Program-made: the position numbers and the translations under genes
NCBI GenBank assembly: GCA_037379345.1
Contig: CM074511.1
Span: 4,340,001 to 4,404,000 of the forward strand
DNA: 64,000 bases
From: Perna viridis
Lineage: Eukaryota
Reading direction: 5' to 3'
Part shown: positions 5,021 through 54,964 of the stretch, piece after piece
How positions within the stretch are numbered: position 1 is the first letter of the stretch
How the letters are laid out: the number at the start of each line of letters is the position of its first letter
Notes under the pieces: generated by a model
The model's database searches: none
Told to the model about the DNA's origin: nothing
What the model saw: only the letters and a program-made list of their open reading frames with translations

Positions 5021-5024
5021 TTAT

Positions 5025-9363: not shown

Positions 9364-9433
9364 TGCCAGTGGGGCCACGGGCGGTCCTGACGATAATGCG
9401 ATGACATAGAATTCGTCGGAATTATATGTTACA

Positions 9434-28060: not shown

Positions 28061-31000
28061 ATGAATGCCAGCGACCCGGCAATAGGTGATTTGGAATGGG
28101 GACAGTGTATGTTAACGGGCGTTTTAATAAGGCTGTTGAATATAAACCTTCTACAATGTGCCAAATACTGCAGGAGGACTCCCAAATGTTTCTCTATAAA
28201 CTACAGATACAAGTGGGACATGTGTGATTTGGTCTCGGAATACAACATTGACACCTCAAATATAGATAAAAACCAGTTAACTACCGAAATAGGTTGTGTC
28301 CACAGCTATATATCTTCATGGTCGGAGGTAAGATTGAAAATATTTGGAACTAATCCAAAAAAATTCTCCCGGCTCTATATTAAACTAGGATAGCTTAAAA
28401 AGAAATGTACAAGTTTTCTTACAATAGCAATAGCATAAATGTGATGAGTTTATTTGACAAAAATCCAAGACGGAAACGGAATTATGGCTATTGCCACTAT
28501 ACGACACCTAAGATACATAATGTCTCCGTAGATGGTCTTCCTCCTTTCATACAAAAAAAACACATTCGAACCAAACTCTTTTCTATACCATCCACTTTAC
28601 TACACTCCATTTACAAAACAAGTCTTGACACTCCTGTTTCTGGACATACCCCATCATTACACAAACTTTTTGCCATCATTTTGGATATTGGTTTCCACAG
28701 ACTCTTTAAACCAGTTTGTGTAAAAATCAAGATGAAGAAAAAAGATCATTTCTTCCACTACCTTTGTTAACAAAGGTATAGATGCAATTAATTTGGCTAA
28801 CATCCTCCATCACAAAAACGTTACCAACAAAATTCCCCCATATTTCAAGAACAAATTAATACCGATTATTTCATATTCTTATACTTAACCTATTGCATAA
28901 AAAAATCAGTTATAAAAGGCTATTTCAGAACCTCGAGATTGATGACTTCAACGCTAAACCACCTGACTTTTCTTGCAAAAACTCTCCATTCGAATAAAGT
29001 CCTTCCGGTCGATCGTTACAGGATACTTACCCATCATCGAAAACGGATCTGCGTAATATCCTTTTCTAAAGGTTCCAAGTACCGTGATCCACGCTCCATA
29101 AATTTGAGTTATAACTTTAAAGTACTTAATGATGCCGTGAAGGACAACGCAAAAAAATGGATAAAACGAGGACAAGAGGGCATTGATTCTCTGCCAGAGT
29201 GGGTATATAAAGGCCGTGAGGTCTTTAATTTTAAGACGATTGAAAGTGTTAAGTAGGTCAATGAGTGCCAATATTACACCAGTTATCAAAGATCCCGATG
29301 TAGCAAAAACATTTTCTACTATACATGACAAATATGTTGTCGTACCAGCAGATAAAACCCAAAACAACATTGTTTTTGTCCGCAAAACGTTTTACATCCA
29401 ATGTTTATTATCAGAGGTAGACGTAGAAAATAATAGCAGTGAAAAGACCTACCACACTCTCCAAAGAAGAGATAGTCGAAAACCATAAATATGTGTTATC
29501 CTCTTTTGGTATTCCTTCACTCTTATGAGGCTGACTTTATAATTGATCTGATCCGAAAGAAGGAACATCGTTTGTCTCGATCCTTTAATCTCAGTTTCCG
29601 CAATAAAGATGAGGTATTATTGTTAAACAATCCTAGTTTCACATCCACCCCAAACAATAAACTAGAAATGAGTGATACTACAGATGTTGTGAAGTCAGCC
29701 TCATATATTGACCTACACTTAGAGATCGATGGTAAAGGAATACTACTGACCAAACTATACGACAAACTTGATGATTTTCATTCAGTATTGGCAACTTTCC
29801 TTTCATCTGTGGCAACATCCTTTCAGCACCTTCGGATGGAGATTTCATGTCACAACTCATACTTACGTTATGCCAGAGTTTGCCGTAACTACGAAGACTT
29901 TTTGTATCGCGCTAGACTTCTTACCATTAGGCTTCTGGAACAGGATTATATTGCTACAAGATTGAATTCATCAACACAGAAGTTTTATGGTCGTCATCAT
30001 GAACTCGTGGATCGTTACGATGTATCCATCTGCACCATGAAAACTGATTTGTTCAACGTGTCATAGTTTTCCATTCCTCTTTCGGCTACCCTGGACAATC
30101 TTTTATGAGCAAGACGGCGGGTGTTTCTAAAAAAGCAGAGGACGCTTACTTTTGTAACTTTTTATGTATTATTTTAGTTACTTTATGTTCTTTGTTGTGT
30201 ATGTCTGTTTTCAATGTCTGGTCTCTGTCCCTGGATAAGATTTTTTTTTATTTCCGCTAGAATCTTGGTTCCCTTGATTACTCGTTTTCATCAGATAGGC
30301 AGACCAACGCATGCACGTACTGTTACATATTTGTTTCATTTGTAGGAATTGGTGCCACAATGTGTGAACATTATATGTACGGATGGTTATACATGTAATC
30401 CTAACGGCAGTTGCGATGTCGCTTGTAAGTAAAATAACATGTGTAGATGTAAACTGCGATCTAGCCCCCCTTTGCCAAATCACACGTCATTAGAATGTTA
30501 ATTCTCAGTTTTCACAGAAAAACTATCCTTAGAATTCGCAGTTATACTTCGTTGTTACAAATTGTGAAAAGAAAGAAAATGAAACTCTGAATTCTAATTT
30601 ACTTTTTATCGAAACGAAAGTTCAAAGTTAAAATAATATTTTAATCAGTTGATTCATTAATTCATGTCTATCACTGAACTATTTTAACTCCACCATATGT
30701 TTCACATGCCTGTTCATAGTCAGGAGATGGTCATTAATAATGTGCTTTCTGCTCGTTATTCAACTTTCAAATTATATTTTTAAGAAGTGTCATCGATCTG
30801 TTTCCGTGGGTTTGATTACAGTTTTGTTGTCGGGGCCTTTCAGAGTTAACTTGTTGAAGACCTTTTGGTGACCACTAAAAGTATTTCGTAGTTTGGTTAT
30901 ACGCATTTTGCCATATCCGATCTATTTTGCTACGAATCCCGCTTAATCATATGTGACACAGAAAAAAAAATTCAAAGGGATACAGGCAGTCAATAAATTC

Positions 31001-34000
31001 TTAAATTTAAAGAGAGTCCATACTATAGTACATGTAACTCGATACTTTCTTGAGGCATGACCATTATAACGTGCATATCTAAGAATATGTTTAAATGCAC
31101 ACCTTACCGGTATTATATGACTGGTATGTCAAGTTCAGAATGATTGCACCCTTTGTTCATTACCCATATCGATACAATTATTCAATTTTTATTTGTTTGC
31201 TGACAAGTTCAACTTTTTATCAATGCTGAATACGAAAGCTGTTCCAGAAATTTCAAATATAAAAGCGTCTAGAATGACTGCACTCAACAAACCGAAAGGT
31301 CGATCTAAGGTAGTACTCAACATTGTAACCACGTCTATTTATTGAAATAAAAATGTTTTAAGGCAGCAACCATTTGATTTTCGAGGAGGGAGAGGGCTAT
31401 ATACAGTCAACTGAGAGCAAAACACAACATTTTTTTAACATTACTGGCGACAAATGATTTTTTTTTCTAAAAATAAGAGAAAAAAATTTCCCAAAACATT
31501 CATACCCCATAAAAATCAATTCTTCACTGCCCAAGATACCTAGACAATGAAACAAGTATGGAACGTTGAGACCACGTCTATATGTGGAAATGTTTTAAGG
31601 CAGCATCCTTTTGTTTTCGGGGAGGGAGAGGGGACTAGGAATTTTTTCTCATAAAAACATGGGGAAATCAGTATCAGTGCATTTTTTAAAGAAGTTTTTC
31701 CATAAGACGAAAACAAATAATTTCTTCCAATGTACGGTTAAAGATGAGAGCAAAACAAACACATTTTTAACGTTCCTGGCGGCAATGATTTTTTTCTTAA
31801 AATACGGGAAAGAAACTCCCCCCCTCCAAAAAAAACCTATAACCTCCCCTATAACAACTTAAACACTATAACAGTGAAATCCATAACTGTAACTGTTTAC
31901 TTCACACCAAAGAAAACAAATCTTTTTTCAAAATATTGGCAATATCCATGAAAAAAATTAATTTACATTGTAGTGTATCGTAGTAACATGGACAGTTTCA
32001 AAAGCTTTTTATCCATTCAGTACGGACCGAATGTCACTTAATCTACTTCATGCATCAGATGCTCTAAAATCCAGTATCTTGTTCTATTTTTTTTTAATCT
32101 TTTTTTTTATTTTGACCGATTGAGTTTTGTCTAAGAAATTGTTGTCATTGTATGTACTATACTGTATCCAAGTACAAATATAGATCTACATTGAACTTTT
32201 TAGATTGTCATCACAAACTCAAGCCGCATAACGCTTTTGTGGTAGAAAAATTTGGAACATATAGAAACAAGGGTTATGGAATACATCATAAATGTATACC
32301 TATGTATCACATGGTTGGACAAAAAATAGCTGTATGTACTGAGCTAGAAAATGGTAAACTACATTGGGATATCAAGTTTGCATGCTATCCAGGTAACAAG
32401 ACAGATTTCATTGAGATGACTATGTATTATCAAGCAAGGATTGGATTATTATAGTAGTGTACTACTTAGTATTATAATCCTTATATCAGTTCAAATAAAT
32501 GCAGTTTATGAACGAATTTGGCATCAGCCTCATAAACTCATGTACATTCAAGGGTTGATGTCATTAGATGATAACGGGATATCAACTTCTTATGGTATCA
32601 AGAGATTTGTCTGGGGATTAGTATCGAATGTAAAAACCTGTATAGACTGAACTGGGCTTTTTTGGTGAAATCAAGAGTAACCACGCTTAAAGCAAACCAG
32701 ATGCTATATTACAATGGAACGTGAACATAGCAAATAAACACAGACAGAAAGAAAAACATTATATATTCTAAGATAGAAAAACAAATTGACCAAATGCTTA
32801 TTTGGAAGAATAAGTGAACACGCAACAAATGTACATTACGACCGACAGTATCACACAATTTCGTGCAAATTTGTTCCTTTCAGAGTATTGTCCTAAGGAT
32901 TACATATTTGATCCTGAACTTTCTGTATGTTTTAAACTGTACCCTACTTCGTCAACGTATAGTAAGTCGGTAGCAGCTTGTGAGAAAGAGGGATCAAAAC
33001 TGATGAAGATTGATTCCCAGAAAACACAAACTATGGTAGAATACCACCTACGAGAGTGTAGGTATCATTTTAGTCAATTAGGACATAATTAACTGAAGTT
33101 TAAATACATATATTTATTTTATATATAGTTATCATTAATAGCGTCTGTTCTAAATTTTTATACTAAAGTTATCAAGTTGTCAACAGAAGGCCAATGGGGT
33201 AAGATGCCATATTCATGGCTGTTTCATAAACTTCAGCACAAATTTGAACATTCAGATGTTCAAATCATTATTTCAATCAGAAGTTCTTGTATAGCTTTGA
33301 CAAAATCTAGATTTTCATCGATTTTTTTATCTGCAAATTGAGATATTAATCAAACCGACCGATGGCTCTCTAATTCTTTAAAGCTGGCAGTGTAGTTTTT
33401 ATATAAAACATACCAAGCATCAGAACTACTTAAATGCAAAGGAATATCTAAATAAAAATAAAATGTATACAAGAAGTACACATAACCAAACAAATTGAAA
33501 TACGAAGCTAAATGCAGCATCCAATTTTCATAGTGTATTATATAAGGAGTGAATTTTGTAATTCGGCAAACCGGTAAATAATCTATGTTTTATTTTCAAG
33601 TAAGACAAGTCAGATTACTGAGCTTATCAAACATGATCGAAAACACAAGAGGTTCTAATGCGTAAATTTTAGGTGTTCACACCTTGCAAAAGACCATTAA
33701 AAGTTAAAAGAAAAACAACTGTATCAATGACGTCATACTAAATGCTGATTCTGCCTAGAACACGCGAGGTTTAACAGGGCATGTTTATTTTAGGGCATGA
33801 ACAGGTTCCAAATACGAACTACGAGTACATATTCATCCAGGGAAAGAACACGGAAGAGGGCGTTTGGATTTTTGATGACTCGACCTCTTTGGAATTTTTC
33901 AATTGGGACGAAGAACAAAGGCAACCAGATTTAACCGAGGATACTAATTATCTTAGTCTTGGTATTCATCACAAATTCAAATGGCATGATGTGAAGCAAG

Positions 34001-34059
34001 ATTTCACTGGTATACCTCTATGTCAGAAACAGGAACCATTTATCATTGATGAAATATAG
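28061..34059 (+). CDS. Lectin paralog 1: PAN/apple - 4-Cys module - sushi/CCP - C-type lectin (QPD, WHD); exons 28061-28327, 30346-30424, 32204-32392, 32884-33057, 33794-34059; 5' end unresolved
   Basis: All junctions GT/AG and phase-consistent (0,1,1,1). CAKYCRRTPKCFSINY...CDL (PAN); YC..C..AVC..W..C (sushi); CP...CFKL...ACEKEG.LMKIDS and FIQG...W.F...FFNW...QPD...WHD...LCQ (CTLD). Confidence 0.85.
28400..30285 (+). mobile_element. Penelope-like (Naiad-type) retroelement remnant in intron 1 of paralog 1, internally deleted
   Basis: DKYVVVPADK, LHSYEADF, SASYIDL, TKLYDK, KFYGRHHELVDRY; homologous to 46020-48783. Confidence 0.88.
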
Positions 34060-34254
34060 AAAATAACATTGAATGATGACCTCTATAGAAAGTTGTATAT
34101 GATAGAAATTTAGAGTCATAACTTTATAAACAAGTTTTTATTTTATATTTATAATGCTTTCTTTATTATTGAAAACAATGAAAACACATTCTTTTGTTGT
34201 AAAGGTTCTGTTTTATGCATTTGCTTTCTTGTTGCATTTCACAAAAACAGAAAG

Positions 34255-34660
34255 AAATGAATTTTCGTTAGTTTTCAAAGATCTCCATGAAGCCAAAACA
34301 TTGTCCACTAAACATGACAATATGTACCAGCAGATAAAGCCCAAAAACACCATTATTTTCGTCTGCAATACACATTTTTATCGATGATAATAGAAAACAA
34401 CAGCAGTAAAAAGACATATACTGCTACCACACTCTCTAAAGTAAAGATAGTGGAAAACCACAAATCCGTTCTTTCCTTTTTTCGTCTCTCTACTAAATCA
34501 ATAAAAGTGATATTCGGTCAATATGTTGGATTCCATAGCTCTACAAGAATCCATACAAACAAAGCTTTATAGCCTGATCTGCAAAAGTTACAAGAGATTG
34601 CCGAAACTATACGGACTTTTTTGTACCGTGCTTGACTTCTAACGATGAGGCTTCTGGAAT
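34255..34660 (+). mobile_element. Penelope-like fragments
   Basis: KTYTATTLSK..IVENHKSVLS; patchy match to the 47 kb copy. Confidence 0.7.
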
Positions 34661-35186
34661 AAAGTTATGTTGCTACAAGATAATAGACATAGGTCTCATG
34701 GGCCATTGTACTGGGCGATGCGTTCTATTTCAGTCCATCTCTTATCCATTTTGTAATATTTACCTCTTTTTTATAGGTGTTTCAAAGTCAACATATTTTC
34801 CTTTTTCCCTTGATGACTTCGTGTCAGAGCCTGCTGGGAAATGCTTAAGTCCTGACTCATCCATCTCCAAATCTCTGCGTTCTTTGTCTACATGTATTTG
34901 TTTCGTAATTTTCCACGACTCCGCTGTCCAATGGATACGATTTTGTGATTGATTCGTTGTTGTATTTATTATCCAATCAATTGTCAGAAGTAAATGAAAG
35001 GTGGAGATAATCATCATTGTCGGACTCAAGTTATGATATTTGCGTCAGTTGTCATGTATAATTCTACAATTCATTCCTACATAGATACTCTTGATGATAT
35101 TCGCGATCCTACTAGAAGCATCATAATGTATAAGTAGCTTCCAGATGGTTTATGTCAACAATGTCAAAAGCCTTCTCACTATTGAA

Positions 35187-35420
35187 AGAGTGATCAAGGG
35201 AACCAAGGTTATAGCGGTAATCAAAAGAATGTAATCCAAGGACAAAGACCAGACATGGAAAACAGACATACACAACAAAGAACATAAAGTAACTAAAATC
35301 ATACATACAAAGTAACAAAAGTAAATGAGCAACTCGGACTCCACTAAAAACTGGGAGCATGGACCAGGTGCACCGGTAGGGTAGGCGTCCTCTTCTTTTC
35401 TAGAAACACCCGCCTAGTTG
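35187..35420 (-). mobile_element. Solo 3'-UTR of the Penelope-like family
   Basis: Reverse-complement match to ~48550-48783. Confidence 0.85.
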
Positions 35421-36422
35421 GTGTGAAATGCTTAAAGGTTATATAGAGAGAAGAATTCCATTCTTTATGAGGTTGTATTTTCCAGAGAGCTTTTTGTGTT
35501 TTTTTTTTATTTTCAAATTACCGTCTTAGTTCGCTTATTCATTCTCTTCTGTAATGCTATCCTTTTTTCTTTTATCCTCCCTGTTTTTTTGGTTTGTTGG
35601 TTTGTTCGCTACACTGTACTCATCCGATGGATAAGCCTTCCACACCTTTGTTCTGCTGTTGTGAACAGGTGTCTTTCACTCGTATATTTGTCAAATGCAT
35701 TCTTTCTAAGGCAGTGTCTCTTTCACTCCCTCCCACAAAGTGTCTGCTCATCATCTTATCTTCTCTCTGCTCTTGCAATACCCGCTATCGGTTCTTTAGT
35801 TCATCTCTGACTTCCTGTGTACTTTCTTTATATCTTTAATAGTTTGAGCTTATACCTAGCTATAACAAGGTGTGATTTAACTATATTTTTGCTGTCAGTA
35901 AGTCATGAGGATCTCCTAAATATGATCAATCAGATTTTTGTAGTGTGGTCAAGAGACACCCATATTGTTTCCTGGATTTTTGCATGGACGAAAATTGTGC
36001 CCGGAACACCAACTTGTTCATTGCAAATGAGTCAGCTAGCCTTACCCCATTTGCATATATATCACCAAGACCATAAGCCTTTAGGTCTTTCTTTACACAA
36101 GAGACAAGAAGAATTCGGTTGGCATTCTAATTTTTAACATACATGAAAAGATGAAAAATGTTAGATTCACTTGTCTGTTTGTATTTCATTATTTTTTTAT
36201 TTTATTGAATTCATTTGATAAGCTTTAAAACCATGCATGTATAAAATAATCATTCTATAATCTAAAAATTTCTAAAATAATTCATTATAAATCGATTTTA
36301 CTAAAGAAATGAAGATTTTCAATCTGTTATATTTATTGATTTCTGCAATAAAAGTCTGACAACAGCTATATTTATTTATTTATATATACATATACTAGCA
36401 TCTAAGAGAAAACTTTAGCTTA

Positions 36423-39400
36423 ATGAATAATAACGCACTGGCAATAGGTGATTTGGAATGGGGACAGTGTATGTTAACGGGTGTTTTAATAAGGCTCGGA
36501 CAGCTAAGTCTTCTGCAATGCGCTAAATATTGCAGAAGGATCCCAATGTGTTTTTCTATAAATTATAGATACAATTGGGATCTGTGTGATTTGATCTCGG
36601 AATACAACACTGACACCTCAAATATTGATAAAAACCAGTTAACTGCCGAAATAGGTTGTGTTCACAGCTATATATCTTCATGGCCGAAGGTAAGTCATCA
36701 TTCATATGTTGGCATTGAACACTCAGAAAAACTTAACAATAAACCGTAAGGCTAAGGATTCTAGAGAGTATGGTCCGCTCAAATGTTAAAAAATAATTTT
36801 TTTTATATTTCAAGGAAAATTATCCAATCGTAATACAACGCGTACGGCGGCAATGTTTTACACTTAATTTTGCATAAATGTCATAAGTAGATGGTGATGC
36901 CCACTTTGTTAATGATTTAAAGGCAGATTTCAGACAAAGACGGCGACGGATACATAGTAATGAAGAAAATCTCATTCACTGGTCCAGTTGAGCTAAAAAG
37001 CTAGTCGCTTATGGTTTCATCTTAACACTTGTCATAGGTCATAGAAAATTTTCTAGTTATAAAATACAGATATACATTTATTGTGTTGGTTCTTGTGTTT
37101 CATCTTTTCTGTATTAAATGGGTATACTACGCAACTACATGATTTTATTTATTGAATTATAGGATATAGTCCCAGAATGTGTTAACAACGCGTGTCCTGG
37201 TGGCCATGCATGCAAACATGACGGCAGTTGCGTTCCTTCTTGTAAGTTCTTTCATATAGAAAAGGAACGGTGCTAAATTTTGTGTCAACCTTTTTTATTT
37301 ATTCTTAAATCAAAAATAAATTACGCCGAGGTTCAGATCACAAATGTAACAAATTGATAAAAGCATAATAGCATAATTCATTGGAGAAATAAAAATAATT
37401 ACCCGTGAGCGTTGTAAACGCAATGACTCAGCACGTGTATATAAATTAGTTAAATTGCTTTGGCAATTGATAGTATTCCCACATTAATGGCTCGTTTGAT
37501 ATTATTCTCACATTATTGGCACGATTGATAGTATATTTCCGAAGTTTCGACAGTATAGTAGGAAATTATTGTATTGACGGTACTAGTGAAATGTTTCATG
37601 GGATAGTTATCACGTGATGAAGATTTTGAGCGGGAATATGTTCCCTTTGTTATCACATTCTAGCCAACACTTGACTGGTCAACACTCAAGTTTCAGTGAA
37701 AATATAGCAGATATATTTTTTTGTCTTTGCTTAAATTTTATTATTATGATTATAATTTTTCTTTCAATAATATTTGATAAATATGTCATAGACATAATAT
37801 TCTATCTGATGTTTTCCAATCTTCTAAACATATACTTCGTCCAGGTATAACTCTTGAGACGGTCTTTTGAATTGGGTATGGACACAGGTTTCCAAAGAAC
37901 TTTACTACATATTAAGTAGTTGCACTTTTGATAAACACGGGATTACCCCTTTTTATAGAGAAATTGTTAGGTGTTCCATACAGCTTTATAAAGTTTTTTC
38001 CACAAGTAAAAATATGATTTTTTTGCATTCTTAGGTCTAAATTAACTATCAGTATGAAACGTCATTCTGCTATAATATAAGCATTGTTAAGATGCACTAA
38101 CGTAACAGATATATCAATAGCGAAATTCAAACTAACGAACAGCACGAACCAGACTAACCAACATCATGAACCAGACTAAAGAACATCATAAACCAAACTA
38201 ACGAACATCATGAACCAGACTAAAGAACATAAAAAACCAAACTAGCGAACACCACGCACCAGACTAACGAACATAATGAACCAGACTAAAGAACAGCACG
38301 AACCAAACTAACGAACAGCACGAACCAGACTAACGAACAGCACAAACCAGACTAACGAACATCATGAACCAGACTAAAGAACATCACGAACCAAACTAGC
38401 GAACAGCACGAACCAGACTAACGAATAGCACGAACCAAACTAACGAACAGTTCTAACCAGAATAATGAACAGCACGAACCAAACTAAAAACTGAGTGTAA
38501 AGTCAGTTGCTCCAGAAGGGTAAGCAGTTCATGGTTCTTGTATGACACCCACCGTGCTATTCGTTGAAGGTCAAGATGGGTGATATGATATCAATAGCAG
38601 ATGGAAACCATTGTTATACTGGACACAGACATTCCTTGTCGGTCAATCGGACCATGGAATCCACTGTAGAACTTTTATGATATCTATCTTCATCTGGATT
38701 GATTTTTTCTGAAGCCACTGAGGCATGCCTAGAAAATGTTAATGTCAAGAAACCAAATCAAAGTTATAGTCGCATTTTTCTAGATTAGCTTATGGGCTCC
38801 ATACTGAAATGGAAAAGGTTGTTAAATGACTTTCCTACAATCTTTTGTTTTTAATTTGCTGAACAATACAAAGGATTGTCAAAAATATTGAGACCTTTCA
38901 ACTGACCAAGTTGATGAATCCTTACCTGTAAATATTTTAAAAACCAGATCTTGTCTAAAGCAGCTATCTGGTTTATTCAATTTTTCATTGGTGAGGGGAG
39001 TTGAAATTTGATGAATGAAATTTTGTTTTGTGTTCTGTTGACAAGGCTGAAAGAATAGTTTAAAATATCCATTTTTATCTTAACCACACTGCATAAAAAT
39101 CTCATATATATTATAAGAATGAGACCTCAATTCATGTTTATTCCGTCTTTCATACAAATGGAATAGTCCAATTAAGATGGGCCCCGTGCAGGTCCGGGTG
39201 TCAAAAGAATAGGCCCGCAGCAGCGGTAAGCTTGTCGTAAAAGGCGACTAAAAAGTGATCAGAACCCTAGCCGGAGGCTAGGGCACTCTGCCCGCAGAGC
39301 AACTAGGTTGTGTGCTCCAGGAGGTGAAATGGGGTACCCCTGGTGTATTACATGCTGGGGTTGTCAGGCTATAATACGGAAAACCTGACCGCAAACCATA

Positions 39401-42400: not shown

Positions 42401-45400
42401 ACCAACTCTCTTTCAAAACGTTTTACTTCTGTACTCACATCATTATACCAAGTTGTTACACCAGAAAAGACAGTATACCTATATACAGAAGTGAAGTACT
42501 AGGAACCGATTCCTCATACTTTGTAAAAAATCGACTCCAACAGTAATCAAGGGAAGCAAGGTTATAGCGTAAATAAAAAGAATGCAATCCAGGGACAAAG
42601 ACTAGACATGGAAAACAAACATACACAACAAAGAAAATAAAGAAACTAAAATCATACATACAAAGTAACAAAAGCAAATTAGCAACTCGGACTCCCCTAA
42701 AAACTGGGGGCATGGACCAGGTGCACCGGTAAGGTAAACGTCCTCTGCTTTTCTAGAAACACCCACCGATTGCTCATAAAATGTCAAGTCCGGGATAGAC
42801 GAAAGAGGAAAGGAAAACTTTGAAATCATCTTCTTAATATAACGAAGAACAAGTATTCAAAATGCTGGAATTTATGGTCGACAACATATTTATCCAGTGT
42901 GGTGGACGCGTTTGTCGACAAAAGATCGGCATTCTAATGGAAACAAATTGTACCCCACTTGCTGACATATTCCTTCATTCTCATGAGGCTTAACTTTATA
43001 GCTTATCTAATCCAAAAGAAGGAACATAGATTAGCCCGATCTTACTATCTCAATTTCCGCTATAAATATGGCGTGTCGTCGTTACAGTTAGTCTCCCTTT
43101 CCTCTTTCGTCTATCCTAGACCGGCGAACTCAGTGTGTGTCTTTAAAAAAAGGACGCTTAATCTACCGGTGCACCTGGACCATGCTCCCAGCTTTTAGTG
43201 GGGTCCGAGTTGCTCAATTACTTAAATATCTTTGTACGTTTTATTTTGGTAATTTCATGTTCTTTGTTGTGTGTATTTTTCTATGTCGATTGCAATGTTT
43301 TGATTTCACTGAAAATTGCAGTTGCACAAAACTCGAAAACCCTTGGACACTGATGCTTTTTCCTCGTATTACACAGGGTAAAACTTCTCTGCGTTGGATT
43401 TTGTTTGAATGCTTGAATGATTCTGACGAGAGGTTACTTCTTGAAACACGTGAACAGCATACTTAAATTCTTATTTTTTTTTACCTTGCAGATTGTCATC
43501 AAAAACTCAACGTGCATAATGCTTTAGTGGTGGAACAATATGGACTCTATAGAAACATTGGTTTTGGAATACGTCATGAATGTAAGCCTGGTTACCATAT
43601 GGTTGGAAGACCTGTTGCAGTATGTAGAGAGCTAGAAAATAAAAATTATGACTGGGGTGTCGAATTCACATGTTATCCAGGTAAAACACTTGCAAATGAT
43701 AGGTGCAGGCGATATCAATTGCATTTATTCTAGATGTATATGAGTAAATTGTTGCTGTACGGGGAATCAAAAATAAAAGTTTTAATGCAAAAATATGAAG
43801 TTAATTTTAGAATATAGCATCTATTTGTTGCGGTTTCAAGGTATCTGGTTTATTACCGAACGGGGCACTATATTCATGTGCTATTCAGGTAAATAATTGT
43901 AGTTTAATAACGAATAGGACTCATATCCCAGGTCTATTATAATCCCGATTCTCGTAGAAATAGTTTTTTCATGTTTATTACGTATTTTGCGAGCACTGTA
44001 AAACTTTTCCTGTGACGGCTATAAAACTGGGTAAAAATTATCTATCATGTCGGAATTGAGACCGTCACATGTCTTTGACGTTGGTCATATGTTTATTACA
44101 GTTATACCATGGTCTAAAGACGTCTGAAGCACGTTATATTAGATACTTTATTACCAATCAGCCATTGCACTAAAAATCCATAAGAGTAAAATTACTAGTG
44201 GTCATAAGTTATGAAGTCATATTCGAGCAAAGGAAATTTGAATATTTATAGATAATAGCTAAATGGATAAACAAAGTTAATTATAGGATAATCAAAATTC
44301 CAGATCGAGCTTAGTTTCAAACTAGTGAAAACAATATTTAAAAAAAAACTGATAAAAAAAATCGACGAACAACTTTAAATAGTCGAAAAGGACACAGAAG
44401 AAACTAACAAATCATTAAAAATTAGTTTTTCACTATCACATACATTTTTTTCTCTTTCTTTTCATAAACGTGAAAGAATTAACTTTAGAGCGGTTGGTAA
44501 CGTAAGGGAGAGATTTAATGATAACCTGACAATGTTCCCACTCTACATTAACTACAGATTCACAATCCGGCAATATAACTCAATTTAAAAAATCATGTTT
44601 TATTCTTAATGCTTCAGAATACTGTAACACAGATTACTTCTTTGACCTTGAACTTTCATTATGTTTTAAACTGTATAATACGACATCAACATATACAGAA
44701 TCGAAAGCAACTTGTGAGATGGACGACTCCCAGTTGATGAGGATTGACTCTCATAAAACTCAGATCAAAATAGAGAATTACCTACGTGAGTGTATGTTTA
44801 TTTCATGTTTATTGTTAAAATTAGCTAGTTGTGAACTAAAACAGGAAAAGCTACGTTTGTAAGTTTAAAACAAAACTCGCAGCTAGACCGATTATATAAG
44901 ATGACGTTGAAGGTTTCAGAATTAAAGAATACAGTGAACTTTTAAAACTAGTTTGATGCATTGGTAGAAACATAAAAAAGCAATTCTTGAATTCTCAATT
45001 GATTTTTCCTAAACGTTTTTAACCTCACATCTTAAAAAAATGAGTTGAAGGTACTGTCTGTCCAAACCTTTAAAACTGCTCTTGCTTTTTGTACACACAT
45101 ATTGATATCGTATAAAAGAAATTTTCAAAAACTTGTTGAAAAGAGGATATGTACGCGTTCATACTTTTTCCAGTGGGTAACTTTAGCAGACAGGAAGAAA
45201 CAAAGGATTGATTCACGACACACAATTGTCTGATGTTTGGTCTTCAGACCAGCAGTTCGTATTGTACAAATTTTCGATATGTCTTCTACTAAGAAAAGAA
45301 AAAAAAATGAACTTTCCATTTTCAGGTAATGAAAAGCTTCCGAAATCGGATGTAGAATATATTTTTATCCAGGGTATGAAGGGCGGTTATTTTAGAGACG

Positions 45401-45603
45401 TAAATAAAGGTTGGATATTTGAAGACGACACAACCATGAGTTTTTTCAACTGGGATAAAACTGAACCAGATTTAACAGCTCCGATTAATTATCTCAGTTT
45501 ACACATTAAATACAACTTTAAATGTCATGATATTTGGGATAACTTTAAGGGTATGCCACTCTGTCAGAAAAGGGAAAAAAGATCCATGTTTTCGGTCTCC
45601 TAA
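36423..45603 (+). CDS. Lectin paralog 2 (EPD, CHD); exons 36423-36689, 37163-37241, 43492-43680, 44618-44791, 45326-45603; 5' end unresolved
   Basis: Exons 1-4 have the same lengths as in paralog 1 (267, 79, 189, 174), GT/AG, same phases; exon 1 nearly identical in protein. Confidence 0.85.
38129..38487. repeat. 21-bp minisatellite (~17 units, gaacagcacgaaccagactaa-type)
   Basis: Tandem units read directly; the last unit is part of the adjacent Penelope-like 3'-UTR. Confidence 0.9.
38467..38690 (-). mobile_element. 3' end of a second, divergent Penelope-like family
   Basis: Minus strand KFYSGFHGPIDRQGMSV (cf. KFYGRHHELVDRYGVSI), followed by the GGGTG...GCTTACCCTTCTGGAGCA motif. Confidence 0.65.
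39181..39630 (+). mobile_element. SINE-like element, copy C (small internal deletions)
   Basis: Starts gccccgtgcaggtccggg, ends (AATC)n; degenerate TSD ccaattaagatgg / cctatgaatatgg. Confidence 0.9.
39791..40670 (+). mobile_element. Penelope-like remnant
   Basis: MDAAEDYARK, PADK, DLPSM*WISKLHKNPYKQ; homologous to ~46960-47830. Confidence 0.85.
42072..42277. mobile_element. Tc1/mariner-type MITE (coordinates include the TA TSD)
   Basis: TA-CTGTAAACCG ... CGGTTTACAG-TA; splits Penelope-like coding sequence. Confidence 0.82.
42543..42820 (-). mobile_element. Solo Penelope-like 3'-UTR inserted antisense into another copy
   Basis: Reverse complement of 48505-48783; the flanks rejoin as the SSYFVKN..KSSS coding segment. 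Confidence 0.85.
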
Positions 45604-46019: not shown

Positions 46020-48783
46020 CGGGAATTAACACCACCAAATTCCCGACAGTTTATCAACACTTTAATCAAGAAGATCCTTCAATCCTCTTCACGAAAGTTC
46101 GTATTTTAGAATAAATTTACCATCCTACGAACAGTCCCGTTCTAAGTAAATACTATCGTAGGGAAAGAGAGGAGTACTGGATACGCAGACTAGGTACTGC
46201 AATACCTTACGACATCAAAAGTATAGGAAACCTTTCAAGCCAATATAACAATAGCATAAATGTGATGAATTTATTTGACACAAATCCAAGACGGGAAATG
46301 AGTCATGGCCATCGCCACTATACGTCACCTAAGTTACATGATGTCTCCATAGATGGTCTCCTTCCTTTCATACAAAAACCTTTTGGACTTCATCACATTA
46401 GAACCAAACTTTATTCTATACCTCTCACTCTACTACACTCCCTTTACAAAACAAGTCTTGACACTCCTGTTTCTGACCCCACCTCATCATTATACAGACT
46501 TGTTGCCATCATTTTGGATATTGGTTTCCACAGACTCTTTAAACCAGTTTGTGTGAAAAGTCAAGATGAAGAAAAACGATCATTTCTTCCACTACCGTTT
46601 GTCAACAAAGGTATAGATGCAATTAATTTGGCTAATATCCTCCATCACAAAAACGTTAACAACAAAATTCCCCATGTTTCAAAGACAAATCCATACCAAT
46701 TATTTCATATTCCTATACTTCACCCAGTGCATCCAAAATTTTCAATTATAAAAGGCTATTGCAGAATCTCGAGATTGAGGACTTCAAGGCTAAACCATCT
46801 GACTGTTCTTGCAAAACCTCTCCATTCAAATATGGTCCTTCTGGTCACGTCGTTAGGGCGATTTAACCATCGTCGAAAACGAATCTCTGCGTAATATCCT
46901 TTCTAAATGTCTCAAGTACCGTGAACCACGCTTCATAAATTGGAATTATATCTTTAAAGTTCTTATGGATGCCGTCGAGGACTATGCAAGAAAATGGATA
47001 AAACGAGAACAAGAAGACATTGATCAGACTCTGTCAGAGTGGTTAAAGGCCGTGAGATCTTTAATTTTGAAACGAATGAAAGTTTTAAGTAGGTCAATGA
47101 GTGCCAAGGCTACATCCGTTTTTAAAGACCTCGATGTACAAAAACATTGTCTACTATACATGACAAATATGTTGTCTACGAGCAGACAAAGCCCAAAACA
47201 ACATTGTTTTTGTCCGCAAAACGTTTTACATCCAATGTTTATTATCAGAGGTAGACGTATAAAATAATAGCAGTGATAAGACATATACTGCTACCAATTG
47301 ATTGTGGAAAACCATAAACCTGTGCTATCCTCTTTTGGTCTCTCTACCAAAAACGATGATTGTGATTTACCATCTATGTACTGGATTCCTAAACTCCACA
47401 AGAATCCATACAAACAACGTTTCATAGCTGGATCTGCAAAATGTACCACCAAACCTCTTTCAAAACGTTTAACTTCTATACTCACAACTGTCAAAGAGGG
47501 TCTGCAGTCCTACCACAACACTTGTTACTCCCGTAGTGGTATTAATTCAATGTGGATCCTGAAAAATTCTTAAGATCTTTTGGAAACAATTAGTTCAAGA
47601 CTATTATCCGAATATAATAGCATTAAATCCTATAATTTTTCAACACTGTATACTTTTATTCTCCATACTCAGTTATAATCCCGACTTAAAAACATTATAC
47701 ATCGTTGTTTTTTTCCAAAAACGATGTTGCACCTAGATACAAATATATAGTTCTTGGTAGAGATTCCTCATACTTTGTAAGAAATAATTCAAAATCATCT
47801 TCCAAATATACAGAGGAAGATGTTTACAAAATACTGGAATTTTTAATTGACAACATATTTGTCCAGTGTGGTGGACGTGTTTTTCAACAAACGGTCGGCA
47901 TTCCAATGGGACCAAATTGTCCTCCTTTACTTGCTGACCTATTCCTTCACTCTTATGAGGCTGACTTTATAGCTGATCTGATCAGAAAGAAAGAATATCG
48001 TTTGGCTAGATCCTTTAATCTCATTTTCCGCTGTATAGATGACGAATTATCTTTAAACAATCCTAATTTCGGGATTTGATACATCGCATCTACCCAAAAG
48101 AACTTGAGATAAAGGATACTACAGACACTGTGAAGTCAGCCTCATATCTTGACCTACACTGAGAAATCGATGGTAAAGGAAAACTATTGATCAAACTTTA
48201 CGACAAACGTGATGACTTTTCATTCGGAATTGTCAACTTTCCTTTCATCAGTGGCAACATCCCTTCGGCACCTGCGTATGGAGTGTTCATATCACTACTC
48301 ATACGTTATGCCAGAGCTTGCCGAAACTACGCAGACTTCTTGTATCGCACTAGAACTCTAACAAATAGGCTTCTGAAACAGGATTATGTTGCTACAAGAT
48401 TGAAGTCATCACTACAGAAGTTTTATGGTCGTCATCGTGAACTAGTGGATCAATATGGTGTATCCATCTGCACCATGAAAACTGATTTATTCAACGGGTC
48501 ATAGTTTTCCTTTCCTCGTTTGTCTACCCCAGACTTGACTTTTTATGAGCAACTCGACGGGTGTTTCTAGAAAAGCAGAGGACGCTCACCCTACCGGTGC
48601 ACCTGGTCCATGCTCCCAGTTTTTCGTGGAGTCCGAGTTGCTCATTTGCTTTTGTTACTTTGTATGTATGATTTTAGTTACTGTATGTTCTTTGTTGTGT
48701 GTGTCTGTTTCCCATGTCTGGTCTTTGTTCCTGGATTACATTCTTTTTATTACCGCTATAACCTTGGTTCTCTTGTTTACTCA
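46020..48783 (+). mobile_element. Most complete Penelope-like (Naiad-type) copy: C-terminal half of GIY-YIG, linker, RT, 3'-UTR; frameshifted
   Basis: YQHFNQ...RREREEYWIRRLGTAIPY (GIY-YIG end); LPSMYWIPKLHKNP; QQTVGIPMGPNC; FRCIDD (from YIDD); LYDKRDDF; stop at 48504. Confidence 0.92.
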
Positions 48784-49446
48784 TTAATAAAAGTAGGAAA
48801 TATTGTCGCGTTTTTCTTCGCATCTTGTTACAAAGATCACAAGAAAAACTATAACGTGTAAACTTTCAGTTCGTGTTCAATAAAAACCTATCCATCAATC
48901 AGATCATATCACCGATTCGAATGGGACCAGAAGAAGAAACCCCTGTCTTGACTTTTACTAACTTAATTTAATGATCACTTAACAGAACATCTGTTGAGCA
49001 ACAAGCACATTGAAATATCACAATATTTAAACATCTTTCTTTTGGGCCTTGATTTTGAATGTCACTGAATTCGTTCGATTCTATTCTCTCATCTTTTGAA
49101 TTGTAAATATGATCAAGTTTACAGTGTTTGCTGGTGTGGGTCTGTGCAATTCATTTGCGCGCATATTAATGGCAACTTGATCTTCTTGGTTCTTGAAAGT
49201 CATTCTGCAACCATCTTTAAAATCTATGATGCATTCTGACTTTAAATTTGTCGACGTATGAAAATTTCGTGACACTTGAAAATCACGAACTGTCAGTGTC
49301 ATGGATAACAAGGTCGTCGACAATACCTGGCCAAATACGGGCATCATTAAGAATATTTTGACGAAAGAATATTGGCTTTAAGAAATGTATCGCATTCGTC
49401 TAAAAGAATATCAAGTGATTTTGGGCGGAAATCAAAAGAGTATAAT

Positions 49447-49995
49447 CTAAGGACAACGATCTGACAGAGAAAATAGACACAAACAACCAAGAACATGAAT
49501 TACAAATATAATACGTACAAAGAAAAAATAAATGAGCAACTCGGGCTCATCTAAAAACAAGGAGCATAGACTAGATGCACAGGCAGGGTAAAAATCCTCT
49601 GCTTTTCCAGAAAACACCCGCCAAGTTGCCAAGAAATGTCACTTTCGGTGCAGACAAAAGAGAGTAATCAAGGGAACCAAGGTTATAGCGGTAATCAAAA
49701 GAATGTAATTCATGGACAAAGAGCAGACTCGGAAAACAGATAAATACAATAAAGAACATAAAATAACCAAAACAGTATATACAAAGCACCATAACCAAAT
49801 GAGCAACTCTGACTACACTTAAAACTGGGACATGGACCAGGTGCACCGGTAGGGTAAGCGTCCTCTGTTTTTCGAGAAACACCCGCCGAGTTGCTCATAA
49901 AAGTCAAGTCCAGGGTAGGCGAAATGGGGAGGAAAACTATGACACATTGAACAAATCAGTTTTCATGATGCAGATAGATACACCGTAACGATCCA
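49447..49995 (-). mobile_element. Two tandem Penelope-like 3' ends
   Basis: 49660-49995 and 49447-49630 both match the ORF end / 3'-UTR in reverse complement. Confidence 0.85.
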
Positions 49996-51187
49996 TTTTG
50001 TTTCGAACTAACATGAAATATACATGTAGGCAGCTTGAGATTTAGACTACAAAAAGTGTACATGAAGTATTTATCAGATAGCAGCGACTGCAAATGAGCC
50101 AAACTCTAAACGAAAAATAATTTAATAAAAAGTGTCCTCGACATTAAATATTTTTTACTTTTGAAAACGTCATTGAACATTCATTTGATTTTAGGGAGAT
50201 CTGGCTAGTTGCGCGTTTACTATGGCGAACTCCAAATTATAATTTTGTGTTGCAGGAACAATATCAGTATCATAATTCAATCTCAATCTTATTGATGAAA
50301 TGTATACTTTAGACAAACATTTATTTTCAACACAATATCTCAAGTCTCGAGATATGATGTGGAGCGATCGGCTTGCCATTAAACGTTTACAACGTGACAT
50401 AACAAGTAAATCGTCTTTTAGTAGCATTGTATGTTCTGTACATGATCACTGAAGGGGACAAAATATCAATACTTTAACATAACCAAAATAGCTACAAAAT
50501 CTTTCAGAATATGTCATTTATTCAAAACTTTATAGTTTGAAAAAATTGTATGTATATAAAACGCACTCAAGTATGTATGCATTCGACCGACATTCGGGTT
50601 GACTTAAAATGTGGAGTTTGTATTCACAATTGCAGTGACAGAGCCTGAAGGGCGTCCGGGGTTTGGAAATCCCATTTTTTGTAAAAGTTTGCTAACTGCA
50701 TGCAAAATTAGGACAAAAACGAGCTATTGATAGCCTTGTATCCCGCCTTTTCTCCGTCCACCCTCCTCTTTTTAATCTCTGGACCCGCCTCTTCTGTCGA
50801 ATTAATCTGCTTATCGAAGCACTCCACATAATATGAAATTCAAAATGTTGTGTTAAATAGTCGATCTACAGTAAAGATATGTACTGTGAAGTAGATATGA
50901 TTTTCATCTGCATTAATTATAAATAATTTCTCCCGTCCTTTACGGTCTGTCACAAAAGGTTCTATTCGGGTGAGTATCGCCGAGTTATGTTCGTTTACGG
51001 CAAGTTCCGACAAATTAGTGGAAATCTCGTAGACGAAACTTAAAATTGATGTTGAAAATAACAATAAATTAAGAATAAAATCTATACAACGAACAGGACA
51101 ATCAAAAGGTTATCATGAATTACCAAAATATAATAACTCATGCCACATCTGAAATCAAAACCATGCTAGTCTAGTCAATCTACCATG

Positions 51188-54100
51188 TCAAATTTTTTTC
51201 TGACATAACGGAAAACCTTTGTAATTGTCACCTGTATCATGCCATCTAAAATCATCCTCTTTATAAAGTGATATGAAGTTTATATTATATTTGTAATCAG
51301 GTTGGACAATAGGATTATTTCCCCAATCAAAGAAACCCATTAGAGATCTTTCATCGAAATACCATATGGTTTCACTTCGGTGGTTTTTGCCCTGAATAAA
51401 GACGAATTGAACTGATTCTAAATTCTGACTCCCTGTAAAATAGAACAATGACTATTAATAGATTGCGTGTAGTACGACGAGGCACTATAAGGTAGTTTTT
51501 GGTATATTTTTTACCAGATATGATTGATTGATTGTTGGGGTTTAACGTCCGAGCAGCAATATTTCAGCTATATTCAGACGATGAACATGAATTGGATGAT
51601 AAAATGAACATGAAATGATGATGACATGAAAAATGGGATGGGAAACAAGGATAATGGGGTCGACAAATTTTGATTGCCACTGGAAATAGGGAGAGATGGG
51701 TATGGTCGGGCAATTTAGCCTCCTGTGGCGGAGCCCTATGGTTCCTAATCCGGGAGAATACCACAGTAGGGTTTTTTAACGTGCGAGGAACGTGGCATCT
51801 TTCCCAACACGGTGCACCACTATGGTTTGCGGTCAGGTTTTCTGTATTATAGCCTGACAACCCCAGCATGTAACACACCAGGGGTACCCCATTCCACCAC
51901 CTGGGGCACACAAGCCAGTTGCTCTGTGGGCAGAGCGCCCTAGCCCCCGGCTAATGTTCTGAGCACTATTTAGTCGCCTTTTACGACAAGCTTAGCGCTG
52001 CTGCAGGCCTATTCTTTTGACACCCGGACCTGCACGGGTATTCTTACCAGATATATTAGGTATTTAAAAAATGAATCATTTTTTAAATACCTTCATGATC
52101 ATTTCCTGGATTACATTCTTTTGATTACCGCTATAACCTTGGTTCCCTTGATTACTCTTTCAATGTTCGTTTCATGTGCATGAATTAACTTTATATTGTT
52201 ATGTGTCCCCTCTCGATTGTTAATGACTGCACTTTGCACGTGTGAATATAGATGTGACACACTTGACTGGCATTAGAATATCTGAGATTTTATTTTATTT
52301 TTTCATTTTACGCATTCTATTTATATTAGTATCATAAAAGCAGATTTTTTAAATTATGATACATAAGCATGATACAAGTGAGAACTGTTGTTGGTCAATA
52401 ATAGAATCATGTTAACTGTGAATATTATTGTATCAAGCGAGAACTAACATGATTTACGTATATTCTAAATTCAATCTTTTTCTTGAAGTACAAGGCCCTG
52501 CCTTTTCAACTTTTTTTCTCAATATAATAGGAGATAACAATATATAACATTACTTATAAATAATGTAACATACGCAGATATTGCCGAATATGGTTATTTA
52601 GGTTGATAGAATCTATGCGAATTAACTCAGTGCCTTCCAAGATACATCTTTTCCTTGATTCGTAATACAAACGACTCGTATCACGATGTAACTTGAAACA
52701 GGTACCAGTAAAAGAATCATATTGGTAACCCAGGTCATTGGGACACTCATCTATAATGGATAAATTTAGGGTTGAACAAATATGGATAGGCAAATTTCAG
52801 TTCAACCAAATTAAATCACCAATATATTTTCAGTTGTGAATTTCGTTAAATGTTTGATACAGACTTCTTAATGACAAACAAAATTATTGTTAAGTCGAAA
52901 CTAGTTATTGTATATAACATTCATAAACCATGAATACATACTGAATATTGCATGTCAAATTCTGTATCACATGCTGCATCAACCCTCGACCTATATCACC
53001 CCGCGGGCCGGTGGTCCTTGGGGTGATATAGGAGTCTTAGGTTGATACCACATGTGATGCAGATTTTAACATGTCATGTTCATTATATCATATATTTTAA
53101 CCATACTTCAAGTATGGTGTGTGAAGGGGTGTGATATAAGGTATGCTATGTATGTCTACGGGTGTGATATAGGGTATGCGATATAGGTCTGAGGGTGTGA
53201 TATAGGGTATGCGATATTGGTCTAAGGGTGTGATATAGGGTATGCGATATAGGGCTAGTGGTGTGATATAGGATATGCAATAAAGGATAGACGATATAGG
53301 GTTTAAACAAACACTTATAATGCATATACAAAAAAGTTATATTTTAATTTAAATATATGATATAAAATTATATAGATGAAAAGAAAATAATATGAGAAAT
53401 AATCATTCTTGATAAAATGTAAGAAGTACAAATGGAAAACGAGGAGTAATAATAAAATAACCGAACTGAAATCTAATCAATAATCAAAGAAAAGTCCGTA
53501 TAACAATTGAAAATACCAGAGTAAAAGTTGAAAACCACAAAAATAGTCCTGATTTGAACAAGCATTTCAAATTGAAAGGTGGGTTAAACCAGGTTTTAGA
53601 GCTCGGTTAAAGCACAGTTTGATATACTATGAACATTGAGCTGCAAGACTTGTATGATATCATTTGATATTATCTGGGTAACACACAAATTTAACGTCCC
53701 AAACAGTTTTTCCTAAGCTTAGCATTGTACAAACGGCCACTGGTTTTCCGGCCATGTAAAATCCCTTGTAGCAGCTGTGACGTATACCATATCCAATCTT
53801 TCTATGAAGACCAAACTGTTCTGTCACATTGGCATTTATCGTCTCCAGTTTTTGTGTGCAATCTACAAGTTTATACATTGCAGTTTATACCTTTCATGGC
53901 GAGATAAATTCAATTTACGAATGACAGTCACAACTCTTAAAGTTTATATCATCCATTTTTATTACGTATGAAAATTAAATTTTAACAAAAAGAACGGGAC
54001 GTGAAAAAAATGGTATAATTTTTTTTTAAAAAAGATTTTTTTATAACGTTATCTCAAGCGAATCTATATACCTACAAGACAATTGACATTTCTTTCTCCC

Positions 54101-54964
54101 TGAATTGTCTATGACGCAGACCTCACCTTCATTGCAGGCGTGGTTTGTGCAGACATCGTGCGATTCCTGTAACAAATGTACATGATAAAAATAAGTTTAA
54201 TTCTTGAATATCGGTAATAACCAAATTAAAAAAGAAAGAAGAACGAGCACACAGTGCATCTGTCACAATAACATTACATTGGTCCATACAAATTTTTATT
54301 GGATGACTTTAGATAATATGAAATGACTAAATTCAAGAAAAGACTTTGAAGTTTGAAAAAAGTAAATGAAAAAAACAAAAACAAAACAAAACAGGCTTGC
54401 CTATTACCTCCGAATATTGACACATTATATGGCGATTCATCCATAAAAGTGTGGGCATTTATGACATTGCTCTTCAGTTTTTATATATCATGCCGTTTAT
54501 ATGCACAAATTGTACATATTGATCCATATTTCTACGGAATTCGTGTGTATACTCAGATCAAGATTTAATTTCCCGTGTATAATATTTTAATCCTAATAAG
54601 TACACAACCATATAAGCCTTACTTCTGGCCATGTAGATATTTTTGTATTCACACAGCCTTGTTCGGGGCTTAAGTGGTTGATACTCCATGTAGGACTATC
54701 AGTGGTCGGTTTGAAGTCCAGGTTAGTCTCACCAACTAAATCACATATGTGCCATTTGTATCTATAGTTGATGGAAAAACAATTTGATGTCCGTCTACAT
54801 TCTCTCAAGCATTGTAGAATGCTAACTTCGAACAACCTTAACAAGACACCAGTTTTTGTACACTTTCCCCAGTTCATATCACCCATCTGCTTCATCATAG
54901 ATTCAACTGACCATAAAAGCAACAATACAAAAATGTACTGTAACACAGTACTGAAAAGATTCAT
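51188..54964 (-). CDS. Lectin paralog 3 (signal peptide, QPD, WHD); exons 54964-54623, 54166-54076, 53862-53674, 52750-52574, 51432-51188; exon-3 donor reads AT instead of GT
   Basis: MNLFSTVLQYIFVLLLLWSVES signal; same domain order and intron phases as paralogs 1 and 2; sushi exon again 189 nt. Confidence 0.82.
51522..52038 (-). mobile_element. SINE-like element, copy D (in last intron of paralog 3)
   Basis: Reverse-complement match to copy A; TSD ttaccagatat at 51511-51521 and 52044-52054. Confidence 0.92.
52951..53073. mobile_element. Short imperfect palindromic (MITE-like) element
   Basis: catgtcaaattctgtatcacatg...cctatatcaccc / gggtgatatagg...catgtgatgcagattttaacatg are reverse complements. 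Confidence 0.65.
53128..53300. repeat. 33-bp tandem repeat (~5 units, ggtgtgatatagggtatgcgatataggtctgag)
   Basis: Units start at 53128, 53161, 53194, 53227, 53260. Confidence 0.85.

What the first reader, a model, noticed from the sequence alone, without database searches (positions are those of the whole stretch)
28061..54964. Cluster of three genes with an unusual PAN/apple - 4-Cys - sushi - C-type lectin architecture
Seen: three 5-exon paralogs (two on +, one inverted) with identical intron phases and exons matching domain boundaries (the CTLD spans two exons), none visible as a single ORF. There is no TM segment, and the module order is roughly a selectin ectodomain (CTLD-EGF-sushi) reversed and capped by a PAN domain. 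Paralogs 1 and 2 have nearly identical PAN exons but clearly more divergent CTLD exons. Known: PAN, CCP and CTLD modules act in glycan/protein recognition and complement-like immunity, and bivalves expand such families. Inference: a secreted pattern-recognition family with a conserved N-terminal module and a diversifying sugar-binding end. I do not recognise it as a named family.
Basis: partly seen in the sequence, partly recalled or inferred. Interest (0 to 1): 0.7.

Follow-up and report, generated by a model that had tools for sequence, protein, structure and literature searches.

The report
Mussel lectin stalk with swappable heads
Three neighbouring genes of a likely mussel join a C-type lectin end to a three-domain front piece that elsewhere in the same genome carries a fibrinogen-type or an F-type lectin end instead, which likely makes them one variant of a mix-and-match set of recognition proteins, although each copy has a flaw and no transcript has been seen to join the parts.

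Summary
The three five-exon paralogs are real (PAN, 4-Cys EGF-like, sushi, two-exon C-type lectin domain; intron phases 0,1,1,1) and have been under purifying selection. Of 17 such sushi exons located in this genome, 10 are followed by fibrinogen-domain exons, 4 by F-type-lectin (F5/8 type C) exons and 3, these genes, by C-type lectin exons; every head whose first exon I inspected joins in phase 1. The lectin head comes from a separate, largely Pfam-dark family. 'Conserved PAN, diversifying lectin end' is not supported: dN/dS is 0.24 against 0.23; the heads simply have higher synonymous divergence, likely because the stalks of genes 1 and 2 were homogenised later. Caveats: genes 1 and 2 have no signal peptide, gene 3's sushi-to-lectin splice donor reads AT, one calcium ligand is lost, and splicing is untested. 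Closest precedents: oyster CgCLec-CCP and snail FREP/CREP/GREP. Verdict: new variant of a known kind; likely soluble recognition adaptor.

The parts
28061..28327 (+). Gene 1 exon 1: PAN/apple domain (6 Cys), starts at ATG, no signal peptide in frame
   Evidence: Pfam PAN_1 27.5 bits; boundaries
30346..30424 (+). Gene 1 exon 2: 4-Cys EGF-like module
32204..32392 (+). Gene 1 exon 3: sushi/CCP
   Evidence: Pfam Sushi E 0.039; alignment
32884..33057 (+). Gene 1 exon 4: first half of long-form C-type lectin domain; donor shifted 6 nt
   Evidence: Pfam Lectin_C E 8.5e-4, below cut-off
33794..34059 (+). Gene 1 exon 5: second half of lectin domain (QPD, WHD), stop
27911..27971 (+). Upstream stretch homologous to 36267-36330: TATA-like motif and/or decayed signal-peptide start
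   Evidence: 75% over 64 nt; 0 of 1000 shuffles as good
36267..36422 (+). Gene 2 upstream stretch: TATA-like motif, then an in-frame ATG at 36309 with a hydrophobic run, cut by two in-frame stops
36423..36689 (+). Gene 2 exon 1: PAN/apple, no intact signal peptide
   Evidence: Pfam PAN_1 25.4 bits
37163..37241 (+). Gene 2 exon 2: 4-Cys EGF-like
43492..43680 (+). Gene 2 exon 3: sushi/CCP
   Evidence: Pfam Sushi 26.9 bits, above cut-off
44618..44785 (+). Gene 2 exon 4: lectin domain first half
45326..45603 (+). Gene 2 exon 5: lectin domain second half (EPD, CHD), stop
54623..54964 (-). Gene 3 exon 1: signal-peptide-like N-terminus plus PAN/apple
   Evidence: Pfam PAN_1 23.3 bits; hydrophobic start
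54076..54166 (-). Gene 3 exon 2: 4-Cys EGF-like (weak FOLN match)
   Evidence: Pfam FOLN E 0.006
53674..53862 (-). Gene 3 exon 3: sushi/CCP
   Evidence: Pfam Sushi E 0.027
53672..53673 (-). Gene 3 intron-3 donor position reads AT, not GT; unspliced it would give a 211-aa protein without lectin head
52574..52750 (-). Gene 3 exon 4: lectin domain first half
51188..51432 (-). Gene 3 exon 5: lectin domain second half (QPD, WHD), stop

Best explanation
These three genes are the C-type-lectin-headed branch of a mussel gene family whose shared PAN-EGF-like-sushi front end carries a fibrinogen-type or F-type-lectin head elsewhere in the genome; the lectin head was likely attached by exon shuffling at the phase-1 intron after the sushi exon, and the protein likely works as a soluble adaptor whose head would bind a surface glycan or protein while the front end would dock a common partner such as a complement-like protease. 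Shown: gene structures, three head types on one front end, compatible phases, separate ancestry of the lectin exons, purifying selection. Inferred: direction of the swap, later homogenisation of the gene 1 and 2 stalks by conversion or unequal crossing-over, secretion, ligand binding, the partner.
For: Same front end plus fibrinogen domain in annotated Mytilus proteins P0007, P0151, P0152, P0154. In this genome, of 17 front-end sushi exons located, 10 are followed by fibrinogen exons, 4 by F5/8-type-C/F-type exons (above Pfam cut-off in 3 of 4), 3 by the lectin exons. Phases PAN 0, EGF-like 1, sushi 1 are shared; the first fibrinogen exon (3 genes inspected) and the first lectin exon of the donor family begin in phase 1; the F-type copies have a conserved phase-1 donor after sushi. 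Stalk tree of 17 rows: each head type is one group, 2 changes, the minimum; trio 100/97, F-type 99/97, the two together 90/87. Lectin tree of 11 rows: trio groups with C6 and C8 lectin genes at 97/94; the C6 gene has another kind of PAN exon joined directly to the lectin exons, with the same mid-domain intron. Model of a Mytilus stalk matches apple domains (Z 10.8, rmsd 2.3, 76 aligned) and complement CCPs (Z 6.1, rmsd 2.4, 57 aligned). dN/dS 0.2-0.6 per exon between genes 1 and 2. Precedent: oyster CgCLec-CCP binds bacteria and the CUB domain of CgMASPL-1 and promotes C3 cleavage (PMC8605247, passages).
Against: No copy is canonical as assembled: genes 1 and 2 lack a signal peptide and have no good acceptor for an upstream exon (11 candidate AGs score at most 1.8; 22 true acceptors score 2.8-12.3); gene 3's donor before the lectin exons is AT. 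The lectin domain lacks the inner disulfide and the glutamate that is a site-2 calcium ligand in the aligned antifreeze lectin, and WND is WHD/CHD, so calcium-dependent sugar binding is uncertain. No collagen or obvious coiled-coil for oligomerisation. The trees are unrooted: a PAN-only test does not reject grouping the trio with the other PAN type (p-AU 0.28), and nesting within the genome's fibrinogen-headed genes is not rejected (p-AU 0.18), so the direction of the swap is not shown. Nothing here ties the genes to immunity rather than feeding, shell or gamete recognition.
Confidence: 0.58

Rival explanations
1. The cluster was functional for a long time but is now decaying or haplotype-broken: genes 1 and 2 lost secretion, gene 3 lost its lectin junction, and little or no full-length secreted protein is made.
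For: One lesion in each copy; introns are filled with transposon fragments; several family members on C7, C9 and C15 carry stops or frameshifts. A simulated neutral drift of 2% still leaves the frame open in 39-43% of 1000 runs.
Against: Genes 1 and 2 keep open frames, all 18 shared cysteines and GT-AG at 8 of 8 introns; dN/dS 0.24 in PAN at dS 0.44; 0 of 1000 neutral runs stay open at 0.22 substitutions per site. Their upstream regions differ far more than the PAN exon, so loss of the in-exon signal peptide looks older than the end of selection.
Confidence: 0.2
2. The proteins are made but serve a non-immune recognition or matrix role (mucus particle capture, shell or byssus matrix, gamete binding), with a lectin fold that binds protein rather than sugar.
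For: Incomplete calcium site; bivalve C-type lectins are also linked to particle capture (PMC5549309, passages) and oyster F-type lectins to sperm-egg binding (PMC5712786, passages).
Against: All three heads on this stalk are typical pattern-recognition folds, and CCP plus lectin has a tested immune precedent (PMC8605247). Bivalve lectins with WHD or EPD motifs are listed as calcium-dependent (PMC12842671, table passage).
Confidence: 0.2
3. One reading: a conserved N-terminal module with a lectin end under diversifying selection.
For: PAN is the most similar exon between genes 1 and 2 (81% against 42-60%).
Against: Lectin dN/dS 0.23 equals PAN's 0.24; the highest ratio is in EGF-like plus sushi (0.57); synonymous differences are 42 of 115 sites in the stalk and 54 of 84 in the head (p=1.7e-4; p=0.021 with the indel-poor first lectin exon alone). 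Three sequences cannot reveal selection at single sites.
Confidence: 0.07

Closest known systems
Uncharacterised Mytilus PAN-sushi-fibrinogen proteins (P0007 = CAC5404895.1; P0151 = LOC134719319; P0153, P0154) and ESM Atlas molluscan clusters (PAN/Sushi 184 aa, 87 members; FReD/Sushi/PAN 425 aa, 53; PAN/Sushi 374 aa, 50)
   Same: Homologous PAN, 4-Cys EGF-like and sushi modules in the same order, 35-41% identical over the stalk; Atlas rows.
   Different: Head is a fibrinogen domain or not named; they keep a signal peptide and a two-cysteine linker before PAN, which the trio lacks.
CgCLec-CCP of Crassostrea gigas (PMC8605247)
   Same: One CCP plus one C-type lectin domain without collagen; model for how a CCP-lectin could start a complement-like cascade.
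Gastropod VIgLs: FREP, CREP, GREP (PMC10875847)
   Same: One secreted front end with interchangeable fibrinogen, C-type lectin or galectin heads; diversification by conversion and exon shuffling is reported.
   Different: Their front end is one or two IgSF domains; here it is PAN-EGF-like-sushi and the third head is F-type.
Collectins and ficolins (recalled; domain summary in PMC11312191)
   Same: C-type lectin and fibrinogen heads on a common stalk that recruits a protease.
   Different: Stalk is collagen and forms trimers; none here.
Selectins (recalled)
   Same: C-type lectin, EGF and sushi modules.
   Different: Opposite order, transmembrane anchor, many sushi repeats, 6-Cys EGF; no sign of common descent of the arrangement.

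Membership tests
C-type lectin-like domain | Fold and outer disulfides | tested here: met
   Profile of last exons matches 15 PDB sequences, all of this fold; long-form N-terminal pair and outer pair of cysteines present.
Calcium-dependent sugar-binding C-type lectin | Site-2 ligands (EPN/QPD, downstream Glu, WND) and inner disulfide | tested here: inconclusive
   QPD/EPD/QPD and the last Asp kept; Glu replaced by T/I/I; Asn by His; inner cysteine pair absent (ligand roles recalled). Binding not testable.
PAN/apple domain | Six-cysteine pattern and fold | tested here: met
   Pfam PAN_1 above cut-off in 3 of 3; homologue model Z 10.8 to an apple lectin.
Sushi/CCP | Four cysteines and tryptophan, CCP fold | tested here: met
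   Invariant in 11 of 11 aligned exons; Pfam above cut-off in gene 2; Z 6.1 for the homologue model.
Mussel PAN-EGF-like-sushi front-end family (unnamed) | Homologous three modules with intron phases 0,1,1 | tested here: met
Mussel PAN-EGF-like-sushi front-end family (unnamed) | Signal peptide in the PAN exon | tested here: not met
   Met in gene 3 only; absent in genes 1 and 2. Hydrophobicity scan only, no dedicated predictor.
CgCLec-CCP orthologue | Sequence orthology and MASP-like binding | not testable with these tools
   Only a gene id is given in the passages read.
VIgL (CREP) | IgSF domain(s) before the lectin domain | tested here: not met
   No Ig family among Pfam hits of 15 exons at E<=1; front end is PAN, EGF-like, sushi.
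Collectin/ficolin-like initiator | Collagen stalk | tested here: not met
   No Gly-X-Y repeat in the three spliced proteins.
Selectin | N-terminal lectin domain and transmembrane anchor | tested here: not met
   Lectin domain is C-terminal; no internal membrane segment.

The most novel reading that the evidence does not exclude
Bivalves have their own mix-and-match recognition platform, parallel to snail VIgLs and vertebrate collectins/ficolins: one PAN-EGF-like-sushi docking stalk fitted by exon shuffling at a single phase-1 intron with at least three unrelated lectin folds (fibrinogen, F-type, C-type), all feeding one complement-like partner, with recombination at that same intron still re-pairing stalks and heads.
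Probability: 0.3. Interest if true: 0.75.

Novelty: new variant of a known kind. Interest (0 to 1): 0.52.

Why it matters
Bivalves lack collagen-type collectins and ficolins, and what starts their complement-like pathway is open. A single stalk found with three different lectin folds in one genome is a direct, testable candidate: if the stalks share a partner, head swapping would be a way to add ligand range without changing the downstream step. The lectin subfamily involved is largely missed by Pfam (a full Mytilus member has no hit at E<=1), so domain surveys will have under-counted such genes. Multi-domain lectins are common in bivalves, which limits the surprise.

Tried and rejected
RNA: no RNA holder listed. 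Laying 4 of the 24 listed runs on 26500-46000 was swamped by transposon reads; none of the 15 joints shown (183 not shown) was a GT-AG exon junction; exon bins had near-zero depth and one 151-nt contig matched gene 2 exon 1 exactly, in a run whose RNA status is a guess: inconclusive. No read data were obtained for gene 3, so the AT donor is unchecked. Homologue searches with a PAN exon (0 of 42 candidates), a 14-exon PAN alignment (4 of 3789, all fibrinogen-headed), a 10-exon lectin alignment (2 of 4208, neither with the stalk) and a sushi exon (10 of the 150 listed proteins scanned) found no stalk-plus-C-type-lectin protein in another species; these searches are weak. The Atlas did not link the 374-aa cluster to this lectin type; an F-type head would fit its length as well. 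The model of P0158 was poor (mean pLDDT 58.5) and gave no match at E<=0.001, though its top rows were C-type lectins. I first read the C15 copies as headless (labels); a conserved donor and searches showed F-type heads, and I corrected this. Rejected: reversed selectin; diversifying head; a strong upstream signal-exon acceptor. Literature: nine completed searches gave no paper naming this architecture or the three-headed family; figures (for example Fig. 7 of PMC10140915) and subscription journals could not be seen.

Full report
Setting. The window lies on contig C1 of a 723-Mb, 46-contig genome. Best named homologues are Mytilus proteins, so the organism is likely a mytilid mussel (inference).

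Observation. Splicing by coordinates gives three five-exon genes with phases 0,1,1,1 and open frames of 324, 326 and 347 aa sharing 18 cysteines. Exon 1 is a PAN domain (Pfam cut-off passed in 3 of 3), exon 3 a sushi domain (passed in 1 of 3), exon 2 a four-cysteine EGF-like piece (weak FOLN match in gene 3). Exons 4-5 barely register in Pfam (1 of 6, below cut-off), but a profile of 10 last-exon sequences finds 15 PDB sequences, all C-type-lectin folds, best single-domain hit a type II antifreeze protein at E 5e-7. A complete Mytilus member of this lectin subfamily has no Pfam hit at E<=1.

The front end is shared. The sushi search returned P0007, a Mytilus protein with the same PAN, EGF-like and sushi modules followed by a fibrinogen domain; the PAN alignment found four more such proteins, one lacking sushi. 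In the own genome the PAN exon has 18 and 29 matches with two queries (lower bounds). I fetched 60 stretches around these, around the lectin matches and beside the window and located 17 front-end sushi exons: 10 on C7, C8 and C9 are followed by fibrinogen exons, 4 on C15 by F5/8-type-C exons, two of them after an extra six-cysteine EGF exon (Pfam cut-off passed in 3 of 4; the F-type fucose-binding motif, recalled, is complete in two), and 3 by C-type lectin exons. Several members are broken, three PAN exons had no downstream stalk exon in the DNA fetched, and one fibrinogen gene had no sushi hit. The more distant PAN matches on C5, C12, C14 and C15 had no stalk exons, except one degraded C15 copy that is counted above. 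Molluscan Atlas clusters with PAN plus sushi of 184, 374 and 425 aa show the front end is not confined to this genome. A model of a Mytilus stalk (pLDDT 82-96 over PAN and most of sushi) matches apple and CCP folds.

Origin of the head. The last exon has 14 matches in the genome. The nearest relatives with both exons are genes on C6 and C8 (97/94 in an 11-row tree with long branches). The C6, C10 and C11 genes have a different, distant PAN exon and no EGF-like or sushi exon, and share the intron in the middle of the lectin domain. Sushi ends in phase 1 in all three classes, and the first fibrinogen exon (3 genes inspected) and first lectin exon start in phase 1, so heads can be exchanged by intronic recombination without breaking the frame. 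In the stalk tree (17 rows; the partial long-branch C8 row left out) each head type is one group and two changes suffice. The root is unknown and two constraint tests were not rejected (p-AU 0.28; 0.18), so which head came first is not shown; the wider spread of the fibrinogen form makes the C-type form likely derived.

Selection. Between genes 1 and 2 (Nei-Gojobori): PAN dS 0.44, dN/dS 0.24; EGF-like plus sushi dS 0.55, 0.57; lectin dS 1.47, 0.23. Synonymous differences are fewer in the stalk than in the head (42/115 against 54/84, p=1.7e-4). This fits later homogenisation of the two stalks with a break in intron 3, the same intron at which heads differ, and does not fit a diversifying head. 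Comparisons with gene 3 are near saturation; indels in exon 5 may inflate its dS.

Flaws. Gene 3 has a signal-peptide-like start but an AT at the donor before the lectin exons; unspliced it yields a 211-aa stalk; in-frame GT sites nearby are far from the donor consensus. Genes 1 and 2 have canonical introns but start at PAN. Their upstream DNA shares a 64-nt homologous stretch holding a TATA-like motif and, in gene 2, an in-frame hydrophobic start cut by two stops; it may be a promoter or a decayed signal sequence. No good acceptor for an upstream exon was found. Neutral simulation shows long-term function but cannot exclude recent loss. Read data did not settle any junction.

Mechanism. Most likely a soluble adaptor: the lectin head binds a surface ligand (galactose-type motif in genes 1 and 3, but an incomplete calcium site), PAN may add a second glycan- or protein-binding face (its best fold match is a parasite apple-domain lectin; fold shows no function), and sushi offers a docking site for a complement-like partner as proposed for CgCLec-CCP. 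All functional steps are inferred.

Literature seen. Passages: PMC8605247, PMC10140915 (supplement list and part 1 of 5; it notes bivalve-specific lectin architectures including sushi, without naming this one in the passages), PMC12842671, PMC9835746, PMC5549309, PMC11312191, PMC10875847, PMC8905726, PMC5712786. Others as search listings only. Selectin and collectin architecture and lectin ligand numbering are recalled. An earlier scan note on a clam family with swappable heads (e1-9558308) points the same way; it is an unchecked lead, not support.

Verdict. Real genes; an undescribed C-type-lectin branch of an unnamed bivalve front-end family with at least three lectin heads. New variant of a known kind; interest 0.52.

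Noticed in passing
window 70-8800: GC-rich (53-55%) Polinton/Maverick-like element in pieces: Pfam hits for rve integrase with chromo and phospholipase-A2-like domains (2672-4108), DNA_pol_B_2 (5839-6606) and weak Pox_A32 ATPase (1726-2499). Observed only.
   Followed up: partly
window 8962-13317: LINE fragments: endonuclease and reverse transcriptase hits, interrupted by a 500-bp repeat.
   Followed up: partly
window 17225-17710: 161-aa open frame with a hydrophobic segment and a PPPPSY-type motif near its end; no Pfam hit; possibly the last exon of a membrane protein.
   Followed up: no
window 28424-30290, 39800-40700, 45950-50000; 10438, 19900, 39181, 51521: Retroelement-like fragments and a 500-bp repeat family fill the introns and spacers of the cluster and draw most RNA reads.
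   Followed up: no
window 55814-56879: Inverted repeat of 469 bp at 98% identity, MITE- or foldback-like.
   Followed up: no
window 61893-63710: Tandem array with a period of about 28 bp.
   Followed up: no
L036, L037, L038, L089 (G000:C7:39.01-39.03 Mb): Four stalk-fibrinogen genes keep only the intron after PAN; EGF-like, sushi and fibrinogen parts lie in one frame, as after partial retro-copying.
   Followed up: partly
L023, L025, L035, L076 (G000:C15): PAN-EGF-like-sushi-(EGF)-F-type lectin genes, a further undescribed architecture; two look broken.
   Followed up: partly
P0158; L053, L057, L059, L061, L062: A C-type lectin subfamily without the inner disulfide that Pfam largely misses.
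   Followed up: partly
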